Source: an uncultured Candidatus Poseidoniales archaeon
GTDB taxonomy: Archaea; Thermoplasmatota; Poseidoniia; Poseidoniales; Thalassarchaeaceae
Length of the DNA: 20,909 nucleotides
Assembly: GCA_964645485.1 (NCBI GenBank)
Contig: CAZXZO010000028.1
Location: 1 to 20,909 of the forward strand
Reading direction: 5' to 3'
The position numbers were made by a program, and so were the translations under genes. The number at the start of each line of letters is the position of its first letter. Position 1 is the stretch's first letter. Positions 10,826 through 12,484 of this stretch are shown here, piece after piece. The notes under the pieces were generated by a model that saw only the letters and a list, made by a program, of their open reading frames with translations, had not been told where the DNA came from and did not search any database.

Positions 10826-10996
10826 TTATTCTTCTTCGAATGCGGCCTTTAATTTCTCTTCGTCGCGCTCCCATCTCTTTCTCTGATGCTCCTCAACCAA
10901 TTCAAGTTTAGAATTGAGTTTTTTTGCCATGAAACGATAGATAATATACAACATCAGAACATCAAAAATGATGAAGGCGGCCAGTAAATTATCCAT
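10826..10996 (-). CDS. Small hypothetical single-pass membrane protein, 56 aa (below the ORF-track cutoff)
   Basis: Hand translation gives MDNLLAAFIIFDVLMLYIIYRFMAKKLNSKLELVEEHQRKRWERDEEKLKAAFEEE*. It starts 9 nt after the ferredoxin stop, fills the intergenic gap and ends 7 nt from the convergent corA stop. Confidence 0.7.
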   Translation of the reverse strand: MDNLLAAFIIFDVLMLYIIYRFMAKKLNSKLELVEEHQRKRWERDEEKLKAAFEEE

Positions 10997-11005
10997 ATTA
11001 TCAAC

Positions 11006-11347
11006 TCACAGGGGTGGATTTGTTTCTATATCACAAGCAGAATCTGCAACACAAATACACGCCAAAATATATCCCTCATCAATCAAATAATCATCAAGGC
11101 CTGGAGGCGGAGGGTCCGGAATTGGAACTTCTCCCTTGACCAATTTTACAAGACAGGTGCCACAATTTCCAGAGGTGCAACCACTTGGAATTTCAATTCC
11201 AGCCTCCTCAGCAATTTCTAGAATTGGAGTGTTTCTCTCAACCTCGGCACTGCCAAGAATAACACCATTACGGAAGAATCGAACTAATGCCATATCGGTG
11301 GCCAAAGAGTACTCCGCCTTGAGAATAGTGCAAACTTGTTGGTTCAC
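11006..11347 (-). CDS. Plant/adrenodoxin-type 2Fe-2S ferredoxin (Fer2)
   Basis: PSGCTSGNCGTC...ILACIC is the C-x4-C-x2-C...C ligand set. GTG 11347 overlaps the upstream TGA (GTGA coupling); ATG 11293 is an alternative start. Confidence 0.92.
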   Translation of the reverse strand: MNQQVCTILKAEYSLATDMALVRFFRNGVILGSAEVERNTPILEIAEEAGIEIPSGCTSGNCGTCLVKLVKGEVPIPDPPPPGLDDYLIDEGYILACICVADSACDIETNPPL

Positions 11348-12432
11348 CGGTCAGACCAGCGTGTCCATCGTCCAGTCTGTTTGTTGAAAACCAGCCCTGC
11401 CTTTTTCATCCACTTGTTGAACTTAGTTGCACCAGCACCTGTTGCAACAATGAAATCCTCTCGGTCTTCTTGGGCTTGAATGTAACCCTTAGCGGCTAAT
11501 GTTTGGTCAATCCAATCATTGATGTCCATCAAGCCACCAGTCAACTTGCTTTCAGAGACTGCTGCCTCTAGCAGCTCAGCGTCTGCTCCTGCCTGTTCCA
11601 AATCTGCTCGGAGTAATTCATCTACTGTGCCTATCTTGGAAATCTTTGGTCTAACTGCAATTGGGAGACGAGGGGGTTTGTTTTCATCAATTGAAATTCG
11701 CTTTCCATTACCTAGGAAAGTTTCCACTCTGTCAACCATGTCAGCACTAAATTCTGATTCACAATCCCAACAAATGTAACTCCATCCTTCTGGGTCTTCT
11801 TGATTGAGATTACCGCTAACTGGGTCTATTTCCTCGCCACATTCTGGGCATGCATAGAGACATAGAACAGGAACCACCTTACGGCGGAAATCAGCAATAT
11901 CTTGAGGTGTACCAGTCAAACCGAGCAGTTCGTGATCTCTCGCAGCCTCTAAACCTCTAGTTTCTAGTTGGTCATTAATCTTTGAGCGCATCTCATTTTT
12001 GCCCTCTTCATCCAAGTTATTTTCTAACTTGCAGATGAGTTCAATACTTTTACCGAGGCGAATCATCACTAGCTTCTTGCTTCGGAAAGCCTCAACCTTG
12101 GCTTCTCTGATTCGCTCCTTCTGCTCAATGATTTCAGACAAGTAATCTTTCTGTTGCCGGCGCAGTCTTTGTTTGTCAATCCGGTCCAATTTTTGTGGAG
12201 TCGACAATACCTTAGAGAGATATTTTTCAGAACCTGAACCAGACGGTCCTGATTTGATTACTTCAATTACTGATGTGGCAATCTTCTCTTTTAGACCATA
12301 ATTACCAACTAATTGTGCTTCTGTTATGCCTTTTAATTTACCAATAGTCAATCCTGCATCAGCTAAGGTCTGAGCAGTTACTTCGTCAACCCCACGTCTC
12401 AAGAGTGCTAGATAGGTGTCCTTCTTCGCCAT
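11344..12432 (-). CDS. Hypothetical nucleic-acid-binding protein: N-terminal helix-hairpin-helix (HHH_5/RadA-N-like), charged helical region, C4 zinc ribbon, C-terminal helical/winged domain
   Basis: RGVDEVTAQTLADAGLTIGKLKGITEAQLVGNYGLKEKIATSVIE (HhH pattern); CPECG-x-CWDCE Zn ligands; basic, Trp-rich C-terminus KFNKWMKKAGLVFNKQTGRWTRW. Confidence 0.75.
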   Translation of the reverse strand: MAKKDTYLALLRRGVDEVTAQTLADAGLTIGKLKGITEAQLVGNYGLKEKIATSVIEVIKSGPSGSGSEKYLSKVLSTPQKLDRIDKQRLRRQQKDYLSEIIEQKERIREAKVEAFRSKKLVMIRLGKSIELICKLENNLDEEGKNEMRSKINDQLETRGLEAARDHELLGLTGTPQDIADFRRKVVPVLCLYACPECGEEIDPVSGNLNQEDPEGWSYICWDCESEFSADMVDRVETFLGNGKRISIDENKPPRLPIAVRPKISKIGTVDELLRADLEQAGADAELLEAAVSESKLTGGLMDINDWIDQTLAAKGYIQAQEDREDFIVATGAGATKFNKWMKKAGLVFNKQTGRWTRWSDR

Positions 12433-12434
12433 AC

Positions 12435-12484
12435 GGCATCCCCCCCGATGCCACCGGAGCCGGGGGTCCGCTTTGAACCCCCCG
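12435..12484 (-). promoter_or_regulatory. Two GC-rich hairpins and a TATA-like element in the leader of the HhH/Zn-ribbon gene
   Basis: The minus strand reads GGGGGTTC-AAAGC-GGACCCCC, then GGCATC-GGGGGG-GATGCC-GT-ATG. The G-rich SD-like tract lies in the loop of the second stem. Confidence 0.4.

What the first reader, a model, noticed from the sequence alone, without database searches (positions are those of the whole stretch)
10826..12484. Putative three-gene system: HhH/Zn-ribbon nucleic-acid-binding protein, 2Fe-2S ferredoxin and small membrane protein
Seen: the genes are co-oriented, with a GTGA stop/start overlap (11344-11347), a 9-nt gap, and their own structured leader separating them from ksgA. 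The 362-aa protein combines an HhH domain, a charged helix, CPEC-x-CWDC and a basic Trp-rich C-terminus, with no recognisable catalytic motif. I know no described system pairing this architecture with a ferredoxin. Inference: a redox-coupled transcription or DNA-associated factor, possibly membrane-tethered. It lies immediately downstream of the rpo4 cluster.
Basis: partly seen in the sequence, partly recalled or inferred. Interest (0 to 1): 0.7.

Follow-up and report, generated by a model that had tools for sequence, protein, structure and literature searches.

The report
Marine archaeal protein borrowing polymerase domain
A 362-residue protein found in nearly every Marine Group II archaeon, and nowhere else, starts with a copy of a small DNA-binding-type domain that related archaea carry on their RNA polymerase. 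It therefore most likely works with the transcription machinery, and the ferredoxin next to it is an optional neighbour, not a partner.

Summary
The three minus-strand genes are real: a 362-aa protein (11344-12432), a plant-type [2Fe-2S] ferredoxin (11006-11347) and a 56-aa single-pass membrane protein (10826-10996).

- **The 362-aa protein.** It matches no Pfam, NCBIfam or PDB-sequence family. It is single-copy in 120 of 121 Poseidoniales genomes (56-97% identity) and was not found full-length outside the order.
- **Position.** It follows rpo4-DUF655-ksgA in all 57 loci examined.
- **Main result.** Residues 1-65 are homologous to the N-terminal extension of RNA polymerase subunit A'' (Rpo1C) of other Thermoplasmatota (hhalign 99.2%, E 7.5e-20). 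They fold as an (HhH)2 domain like NusA AR1/AR2. MGII's own A'' carries a more diverged copy.
- **Rest of the protein.** A helical hairpin, an invariant C4 zinc ribbon and a winged-helix-like C-terminal module. That module also occurs on HTH, DUF4357/McrB-N and PWWP proteins.
- **Ferredoxin.** It follows in 45 of 57 loci, but it is missing from several genomes and decayed in two, so redox coupling is not supported.
- **Membrane protein.** It follows in 52 of 57 loci and is under purifying selection.

Best reading: a lineage-specific factor associated with RNA polymerase or DNA. The function is untested. The scan had flagged this family in at least seven other genomes.

The parts
11344..12432 (-). 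362-aa Poseidoniales-specific core protein with four parts: (HhH)2, helical hairpin, Zn ribbon, winged-helix-like module
   Evidence: ORF. Found in 120 of 121 genomes of the order, single copy, 56-97% identity. No full-length relative outside the order. AF2 model from 43 sequences, mean pLDDT 75.6.
12247..12432 (-). N-terminal (HhH)2 domain (residues 1-62), a paralogue of the RNA polymerase A''/Rpo1C N-terminal extension of Thermoplasmatota
11923..12183 (-). Long helical hairpin (residues 84-170) containing the invariant block DQLETRGLEAARD
   Evidence: AF2 helices 84-142 and 146-170, pLDDT 79-91. Invariant columns. No relative found by sequence.
11746..11856 (-). C4 zinc ribbon (residues 193-229), CPEC-x22-CWDC
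   Evidence: C195, C198, C221 and C224 are invariant in 43 sequences. Short strands in the model. Only weak zinc-finger or ribbon hits.
11353..11532 (-). C-terminal winged-helix-like module (residues 301-360), the most conserved part and a mobile module
11006..11347 (-). Plant-type [2Fe-2S] ferredoxin. The longest ORF is 113 aa from GTG 11347; the likely real start is TTG 11305 or ATG 11293 (99 or 95 aa)
   Evidence: PF00111 E 7.8e-17. PDB cyanobacterial and plant ferredoxins about 1e-13. C-x4-C-x2-C...C present. Follows the 362-aa gene in 45 of 57 loci. Lost or decayed in several genomes.
10826..10996 (-). 56-aa single-pass membrane microprotein with the juxtamembrane motif K-L-x-E-V-E-x-R
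   Evidence: A conserved ORF in 52 of 57 loci; it sits directly after the 362-aa gene where the ferredoxin is missing. pN/pS 0.12-0.27.
12433..12510 (-). GC-rich 78-nt spacer between ksgA and the 362-aa gene, with an SD-like G-run 5-9 nt before the ATG
   Evidence: Folds to -32.5 kcal/mol, z -1.75. The SD-like GGAGGGG or G-run recurs in most loci. Its structure is not above composition.
12511..14766 (-). Upstream co-oriented genes ksgA (12511-13461), DUF655 (13469-14119) and rpo4/rpoF (14116-14766)
   Evidence: PF00398 4e-38 and PF04919 2e-20. RpoF NCBIfam 5.5e-12 and PF03874. Same order in 57 of 57 loci where the flank is available.

Best explanation
The 362-aa protein is a universally kept accessory factor of Poseidoniales (Marine Group II) that acts on DNA together with, or next to, RNA polymerase.

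**Shown**
- Its first ~65 residues are a paralogue of the tethered (HhH)2 domain that other Thermoplasmatota carry at the N-terminus of RNA polymerase subunit A''.
- The free-standing copy keeps the ancestral sequence, while the copy left on MGII's own A'' has diverged.

**Inferred**
- The domain was duplicated from rpoA'' in the MGII ancestor.
- It was joined to a helical hairpin (probable dimerisation), a C4 zinc ribbon and a winged-helix-like module. Zinc ribbons are the usual polymerase-docking element of archaeal TFB, TFE and TFS (established knowledge).
- The protein would then bridge or position DNA relative to the polymerase, much as the tethered alpha-CTD and NusA AR domains do in bacteria.

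**The neighbours**
- The small membrane protein encoded downstream may anchor or modulate it. This is inferred from synteny only.
- The ferredoxin is a dispensable neighbour.
For: **Distribution**
- Single copy in 120 of 121 genomes of the order, 56-97% identity, with several fully invariant blocks. This is the profile of a core housekeeping gene.

**N-domain homology**
- A search of 201 Thermoplasmatota genomes with the protein matched the first 45-116 residues of 470-690-aa frames. The frames examined lie right after rpoB-rpoA' and carry PF04998.
- An HMM of residues 1-80 hit only A'' N-termini among 1541 ORFs.
- hhalign gave 99.2%, E 7.5e-20.
- The exact motif MAKKDTxNALxRRG occurs 31 times in 185,579 species genomes. 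All 31 are in Thermoplasmatota, and 29 of the 31 lie at the start of rpoA''.
- The N-domain is 30-44% identical to A'' extensions from outside MGII, but 22-30% identical to MGII's own.

**Fold**

**Synteny**
- rpo4-DUF655-ksgA-gene in 57 of 57 loci across three families.

**C-terminal module**
- It co-occurs elsewhere with DNA- or chromatin-binding domains.
Against: - There is no direct evidence of binding to RNA polymerase or DNA.
- The function of the A'' N-extension is itself unknown, and I found no paper on it.
- Synteny within one order may simply be inherited.
- ksgA and DUF655 point to ribosome biogenesis or RNA as much as rpo4 points to transcription.
- The helical hairpin and zinc ribbon have no detectable relatives.
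- The A'' sequences used for hhalign had been picked by the HMM of this protein, which inflates that E-value.
Confidence: 0.45

Rival explanations
1. It is a nucleoid or chromatin architectural protein that links DNA to the cell membrane. Two nucleic-acid-binding ends ((HhH)2 and winged helix) are held by a dimerising helical hairpin, and the co-encoded single-pass microprotein anchors the assembly. RNA polymerase is not involved.
For: - The small membrane ORF follows in 52 of 57 loci, and follows directly where the ferredoxin is missing.
- It is under purifying selection and has a conserved cytoplasmic motif.
- The C-terminal module is shared with PWWP, HTH and McrB-N proteins.
- A multi-fold histone gene lies 1.5 kb away in the window (note e1-5507487).
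Against: - The N-domain's only relatives found by sequence sit on RNA polymerase A''.
- The small ORF was not found next to the gene in 5 of 57 loci.
- No contact between the two proteins was shown.
- Synteny within one order is weak evidence.
Confidence: 0.2
2. It is a ribosome-biogenesis or RNA-binding factor that works with KsgA/Dim1 and the DUF655 protein on pre-16S rRNA. The (HhH)2 and winged-helix-like ends would bind RNA.
For: - The gene always lies directly after ksgA and DUF655, with only a short spacer that begins right after the ksgA stop. This suggests co-transcription.
Against: - The same cluster also holds rpo4.
- Other Thermoplasmatota have rpo4-DUF655-ksgA without this gene: a GTPase and PolB follow ksgA instead, and the sister order has no equivalent.
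- The N-domain's relatives are on RNA polymerase, not on ribosomal factors.
- The ribosome-chain match is within the range seen by chance.
Confidence: 0.15
3. It is the first reader's three-protein redox system. The ferredoxin passes electrons to, or senses redox for, the zinc-ribbon protein, whose Cys4 site might bind iron. This would switch its DNA binding, with the microprotein as membrane anchor.
For: - The ferredoxin lies immediately downstream on the same strand in 45 of 57 loci, including all 20 loci sampled in the second round across genera.
- In a same-genus genome where about 1.8 kb has been inserted, it is still on the same strand downstream.
- It is the only stand-alone plant-type ferredoxin in the genome.
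- A weak DUF59 Fe-S assembly gene recurs nearby.
Against: - The ferredoxin was not found anywhere in G019, G011, G005, G077 and G115 (83-96% complete), all of which keep the 362-aa protein.
- It sits on another contig in G001 and G004.
- It lost two cluster cysteines in G057 and has an internal deletion in G075.
- The large protein has only the four ribbon cysteines and no other redox motif.
Confidence: 0.07

Closest known systems
N-terminal extension of RNA polymerase subunit A'' (Rpo1C) in Thermoplasmatota (Thermoplasmata, Methanomassiliicoccales, Methanomethylophilaceae and others)
   Same: Residues 1-65 are homologous, including the very start MAKKDTxxALxRRG. Both copies are followed by a flexible linker.
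   Different: Here the domain is on a free-standing protein with no polymerase catalytic domain (no PF04998). It is followed by a helical hairpin, a zinc ribbon and a winged-helix-like module. I found no published description of the extension itself.
Bacterial NusA acidic-repeat domains AR1/AR2 and RNA polymerase alpha-CTD (tethered (HhH)2 modules of the transcription machinery)
Archaeal TFE-alpha / eukaryotic TFIIE-alpha (winged helix plus zinc ribbon initiation factor)
   Same: Combines a zinc ribbon with a winged-helix-like domain, and is linked to transcription genes.
   Different: The domain order is reversed. There is no match to PF02002 or TIGR00373 (genome searches). The protein is twice as long, with extra (HhH)2 and coiled-coil parts.
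Rpo13, the lineage-specific DNA-contacting RNA polymerase subunit of Sulfolobales
   Same: The precedent for a lineage-restricted small DNA-binding add-on to archaeal RNA polymerase (PMC13257274, as read).
   Different: Unrelated sequence and size. Rpo13 was seen in polymerase structures, whereas nothing of the kind exists for this protein.
Plant- or cyanobacterial-type [2Fe-2S] ferredoxin (PF00111), for the middle gene
   Same: A full-length match with the C-x4-C-x2-C...C ligand pattern.
   Different: Nothing unusual apart from a Pro-rich insert (PDPPPPGLDD) before the fourth Cys.

Membership tests
RNA polymerase subunit A''/Rpo1C | RNA_pol_Rpb1_5 catalytic region (PF04998) | tested here: not met
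   No PF04998 hit in the 362-aa protein at E<=0.1. The genome's true A'' lies on another contig.
Thermoplasmatota A'' N-terminal extension domain (undescribed module) | Sequence homology over the ~65-residue domain, starting at residue 1 with MAKKDTxxALxRRG | tested here: met
   HMM E 2.6e-11 to 1.5e-3, always from model position 1-4. hhalign 99.2%. 30-44% identity.
(HhH)2 / SAM-like DNA- or protein-binding domains | Five-helix fold with two helix-hairpin-helix motifs | tested here: met
(HhH)2 / SAM-like DNA- or protein-binding domains | Match to a Pfam HhH model (PF00633, PF14520, PF12826) | tested here: not met
   No HhH family at E<=0.1. One A'' homologue (L036) carries additional true HHH_5 repeats after the extension.
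Zinc ribbon | Two CxxC knuckles on beta hairpins, conserved | tested here: met
   C195, C198, C221 and C224 invariant. Short strands at 218-220 and 227-229. Only sub-threshold family hits. The bound metal was not tested.
TFE-alpha / TFIIE-alpha | N-terminal extended winged helix matching PF02002 or TIGR00373, followed by a zinc ribbon | tested here: not met
   No hit in the protein. The domain order is ribbon first, then winged helix.
Winged helix (C-terminal module) | Three helices plus a beta-hairpin wing, similar to solved wHTH domains | tested here: inconclusive
Plant-type [2Fe-2S] ferredoxin (PF00111), for the 113-aa ORF | Fer2 domain above the gathering score, with four Cys ligands C-x4-C-x2-C...C | tested here: met
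   61.4 bits against a cut-off of 21. PDB ferredoxins at 1e-13. The ligand pattern can be read in the translation.
Obligate three-gene operon or system | All three genes kept together wherever the large gene occurs | tested here: not met
   Ferredoxin in 45 of 57 loci and small ORF in 52 of 57. The ferredoxin was not found anywhere in five genomes.

The most novel reading that the evidence does not exclude
The protein is a stoichiometric, lineage-specific subunit or general cofactor of the RNA polymerase of Marine Group II archaea. On this reading the ancestral tethered (HhH)2 domain of subunit A'' was duplicated, and its original job moved to a separate protein, which explains why the A''-borne copy diverged. 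Through the co-encoded microprotein, the factor ties transcribing polymerase or the chromosome to the membrane.
Probability: 0.15. Interest if true: 0.8.

Novelty: new variant of a known kind. Interest (0 to 1): 0.55.

Why it matters
Poseidoniales are among the most abundant archaea of the surface ocean, and none has been cultured.

- **The gene.** It is present in essentially every genome of the order, absent elsewhere, and as conserved as core information-processing proteins. It is one of the clearest unknowns in their biology.
- **A testable handle.** The link to a so-far undescribed N-terminal domain of RNA polymerase subunit A'' in Thermoplasmatota gives two things to test: what the tethered (HhH)2 domain does on the polymerase, and whether MGII moved that function to a separate factor.
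- **A correction.** The recurring annotation idea of a 'ferredoxin operon' is wrong here. The ferredoxin is dispensable, and the unannotated 56-aa membrane protein is the steadier neighbour.

Tried and rejected
- **Single-sequence AF2 model.** Mean pLDDT 43.6; discarded.
- **Foldseek.** Against the PDB and BFVD, no match at E<=0.001.
- **Profile of the whole family against PDB sequences.** Only zinc-finger noise.
- **Profile of the C-terminal module.** Nothing significant against the PDB or Pfam; best were DUF5710 at 0.018 and KilAC/ANT at 0.1.
- **Search for longer fused forms.** None.
- **C-terminal module in IMG/VR viral contigs.** None.
- **Context of proteins sharing the C-terminal module.** Mostly short contigs. 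One lies on an archaeal-looking chromosomal contig and one sits beside an SNF2 helicase.
- **Complex prediction of the 362-aa protein with the 56-aa membrane protein.** No verdict (score 0.00, controls not run). This counts neither for nor against binding.
- **Replacement of a missing TFE.** PF02002 and TIGR00373 found no TFE in five MGII genomes, but none in five other Thermoplasmatota genomes either. The weak hits were a DtxR-like repressor and another wHTH protein. The idea has no support and was dropped.
- **SD-sequestering riboregulator in the leader.** Not above composition.
- **Leader as a repeated element.** No other copy in the genome.
- **Positional equivalents elsewhere.** In the sister order and in other Thermoplasmatota, no equivalent gene was found after DUF655 or ksgA.
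Full report
**What is there**

Three co-oriented ORFs lie on the minus strand: 11344-12432 (362 aa), 11006-11347 (113 aa as the longest ORF) and 10826-10996 (56 aa). Directly upstream on the same strand are three known genes:

- ksgA (12511-13461, PF00398 4e-38)
- a DUF655 protein (13469-14119, PF04919 2e-20)
- rpo4/rpoF (14116-14766; NCBIfam RpoF 5.5e-12, PF03874)

The middle ORF is a plant-type [2Fe-2S] ferredoxin. 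It matches PF00111 at 7.8e-17 and cyanobacterial and plant ferredoxins in the PDB at about 1e-13, and it has the C-x4-C-x2-C...C ligand pattern. The 362-aa protein matches no Pfam, NCBIfam or PDB-sequence family.

**Details of the observation**

- The GTGA overlap and the 9-nt gap are in the sequence.
- The GTG start is not conserved. In the two closest relatives a stop codon intervenes and the ferredoxin begins about 43 nt after the upstream stop (99 aa). In the window the equivalent codon is TTG 11305, followed by ATG 11293.
- The 78-nt spacer before the 362-aa gene is GC-rich and folds into two hairpins (-32.5 kcal/mol), but 12 of 200 shuffles fold as well (z -1.75).
- The hairpins are conserved only within the genus.
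- An SD-like G-run 5-9 nt before the ATG recurs across the order.
- Pairing of that G-run with upstream C-runs is not above composition (mean z -0.53; 8 of 56 leaders at p<=0.05). RNAalifold finds at most four consensus pairs.
- In many relatives the spacer starts at the ksgA stop, so a separate transcript is not shown.

**Distribution of the 362-aa protein**

- A search of 121 genomes of the order found it in 120, as a single copy apart from contig-end fragments, at 56-97% identity.
- The word-index search returned 263 cluster representatives. All of those that carry a name are 'hypothetical protein' from Poseidoniaceae, Thalassarchaeaceae or unclassified marine Euryarchaeota/Thermoplasmatota.
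- An exhaustive HMMER search of 1.84 billion representatives found one full-length cluster at 50% identity. The remaining hits were mostly short pieces of the same family, plus larger proteins that share only the C-terminal module.
- In 201 genomes of the phylum, no full-length match occurred outside the order, and the two genomes of the sister order gave none.

The alignment of 43 members has long invariant blocks: MAKKDTxLALxRRG, DQLETRGLEAARD, the four ribbon cysteines, and YIQxQExRxxFIxxTGAGATKFNKWMKKAGLxFxKQxGxW.

**The main result: the N-terminal domain**

- In the phylum-wide search, residues 1-45 to 1-116 matched the start of open frames of 470-690 aa in many non-MGII genomes (E 5e-5 to 5e-3 per genome).
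- The frames examined lie immediately after rpoB and rpoA' and carry RNA_pol_Rpb1_5 from about residue 90 on. They are therefore RNA polymerase subunit A'' (Rpo1C) with an N-terminal extension of 70-90 residues.
- A profile HMM of residues 1-80 of the MGII family, searched against 1541 stop-to-stop ORFs from 39 loci, hit only A'' N-termini. The matches always began at model position 1-4, with E 2.6e-11 to 1.5e-3.
- Profile-profile comparison gave 99.2% probability and E 7.5e-20 over 65 columns. One caveat applies: the A'' set had been selected by that HMM.
- The back-translated motif MAKKDTxNALxRRG has 31 exact matches in one genome each of 185,579 species. All are in Thermoplasmatota: Thermoplasmata, Methanomassiliicoccales, Methanomethylophilaceae, Natronoplasma and Saliniplasma. 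Twenty-nine of the 31 sit at the start of an rpoA'' ORF; the other two are cut off by the locus end.

MGII's own A'' (on another contig, 511 aa) also has an extension, MVVKSATKKKLMD..., which is conserved across MGII. It is the diverged copy:

| Comparison | hhalign probability |
|---|---|
| 362-aa N-domain vs A'' extensions outside MGII | 99.2% |
| MGII A'' extension vs A'' extensions outside MGII | 92.5% |
| MGII A'' extension vs 362-aa N-domain | 87.7% |

The free-standing N-domain is 30-44% identical to A'' extensions from outside MGII, but only 22-30% identical to MGII's own. The simplest history is a duplication of the 5' end of rpoA'' in the MGII ancestor. The free copy then kept the ancestral sequence and the polymerase-borne copy drifted.

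**Structure**

With the 43-sequence alignment, AF2 gave mean pLDDT 75.6. The model has these parts:

| Residues | Element |
|---|---|
| 2-61 | Five-helix domain |
| 65-79 | Disordered linker |
| 84-142 and 146-170 | Helical hairpin, plus helix 176-190 |
| 193-229 | Zinc ribbon |
| 242-268 | Disordered Pro/Lys stretch |
| 270-294 | Two helices |
| 304-358 | Three helices and a beta hairpin |

- Foldseek found nothing at E<=0.001.

**The C-terminal module**

- The last ~55 residues also occur on other proteins: at the N-terminus of a 931-aa protein with HTH_23, DUF4357 and MrcB_N; on 300-400-aa proteins with several HTH domains; and on proteins of 690-1246 aa, one with a clear PWWP domain, one with a weak PWWP hit and one with a weak WW hit.
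- One multi-HTH protein lies on an archaeal-looking chromosomal contig. Another carrier lies beside an SNF2 helicase.
- No Pfam or PDB family matches the module.
- This company points to nucleic-acid or chromatin binding. That is an inference.

**Gene neighbourhood**

I examined 57 loci from three families and about 20 genera.

- *Upstream genes.* ksgA precedes the gene in all 57 loci, and DUF655 and rpo4 precede it wherever the fetched flank reaches.
- *Ferredoxin.* It follows directly in 45 of 57 loci.
  - In G041 it sits about 1.8 kb further downstream, after an insertion.
  - In G001 and G004 it is on another contig.
  - It was not found anywhere in G019, G011, G005, G077 and G115, which are 83-96% complete. 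Four of these five belong to genera (g9, g6) in which other members keep it.
  - In G057 two cluster cysteines are replaced, and in G075 the cluster loop is deleted.
  - The ferredoxin is thus dispensable and repeatedly lost.
- *Small membrane ORF.* It is present in 52 of 57 loci, directly after the 362-aa gene where the ferredoxin is missing.
  - It has a conserved transmembrane helix with a mid-helix D/N, and the motif K-L-x-E-V-E-x-R.
  - pN/pS is 0.12-0.27 in six pairs, so it is a real gene.
- *Other Thermoplasmatota.* The cluster runs ...rpo4-DUF655-ksgA-GTPase-PolB. In the sister order it ends at DUF655. The 362-aa gene is therefore an MGII-specific addition to a conserved information-processing cluster.

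**Interpretation**

Shown:
- A lineage-specific core protein.
- Homology of its N-domain to the A'' extension.
- An (HhH)2-type fold, an invariant Cys4 ribbon and a mobile C-terminal module.
- A fixed position after rpo4-DUF655-ksgA.
- An optional ferredoxin and a conserved membrane microprotein.

Inferred:
- The protein acts with RNA polymerase on DNA.
- The tethered (HhH)2 domain plays a role like bacterial alpha-CTD or the NusA AR domains.
- The ribbon may dock on the polymerase, as in TFB, TFE and TFS.
- The helical hairpin may dimerise.

I put this reading at 0.45. The remainder is unassigned.

**Comparison with the known, and novelty**

- The protein is not an A'' subunit (no PF04998) and not TFE (no PF02002 or TIGR00373, and the domain order is reversed).
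- By fold and tethering logic it works most like the (HhH)2 modules of the bacterial transcription machinery.
- In evolutionary terms it resembles Rpo13 as a lineage-restricted add-on.
- I found no paper describing either the A'' extension or this family.
- The scan had noted the same family on at least seven other genomes, with no follow-up recorded in those notes. One note on this window had guessed the A'' resemblance from memory. That guess is now verified.

I rate it a new variant of a known kind (an accessory nucleic-acid-binding factor of the transcription apparatus), with moderate interest. The biology is untested, but the gene is universal in a globally abundant, uncultured group.

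Noticed in passing
own genome, other contig: L040 1012-2547 (G000:C4): MGII's own RNA polymerase A'' (511 aa) starts MVVKSATKKKLMD... This is a diverged form of the Thermoplasmatota A'' N-extension. It is strongly conserved across MGII families, but less like the canonical extension than the 362-aa protein's N-domain is.
   Followed up: yes
L115 (G146, sister order), rpoA'' frame: The sister-order A'' starts with the canonical MARSDTIRALERRG extension. About 390 residues then precede the part of the 772-aa open frame that aligns with MGII A'' from its residue 119. This looks like a large insertion or fused domain between the extension and the catalytic part.
   Followed up: no
L010 (G057) and L014 (G075), directly after the 362-aa gene: Decaying ferredoxins. 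In L010 the first and third cluster cysteines are replaced (NRTSGTCGTS). In L014 the whole cluster loop is deleted, leaving a 72-aa ORF.
   Followed up: partly
L005 (G037, same genus), between the 362-aa gene and the ferredoxin: A GC-rich insertion of about 400 nt holds a duplicated segment; two overlapping ORFs share an almost identical stretch of about 30 residues. It looks like a small repeat or MITE-like element.
   Followed up: no
window 14116-14766 (-): The rpo4/rpoF ORF is 216 aa, but the Rpb4 domain covers only residues ~103-212. The N-terminal ~95 residues align in some relatives (L054, L056), so the extension may be real. In the sister order, Rpo4 carries a Cys4 ribbon insert instead.
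   Followed up: partly
window 9342-9686 (+): A 114-aa ORF with a CPCC motif gives a weak FeS_assembly_P/DUF59 hit (E 4.8e-4, just under the cut-off). It recurs close to the cluster in L052, L053, L055 and L102, near the ferredoxin.
   Followed up: partly
whole genomes G000, G003, G027, G056, G023 and G242, G263, G175, G146, G279: No TFE-alpha was detectable with PF02002 or TIGR00373 in five MGII and five other Thermoplasmatota genomes. The best weak hits are a DtxR-like repressor and another wHTH protein. TFE in this phylum is either very divergent or missing.
   Followed up: partly
P0201 context; L116 9001-9981: The C-terminal module of the 362-aa protein also heads a 634-aa protein in a gene string with an SNF2-family helicase. 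It also ends a 326-aa multi-HTH protein on an archaeal-looking chromosomal contig.
   Followed up: partly
window 8461-9345 (+): A multi-histone-fold protein gene lies 1.5 kb from the cluster on the other strand. An earlier agent of this scan filed it as the catalogued MGII multi-fold histone.
   Followed up: no
window 15032-18289 (+): A 1085-aa membrane protein with MMPL/Patched sterol-sensing-type domains lies divergent from rpo4.
   Followed up: no
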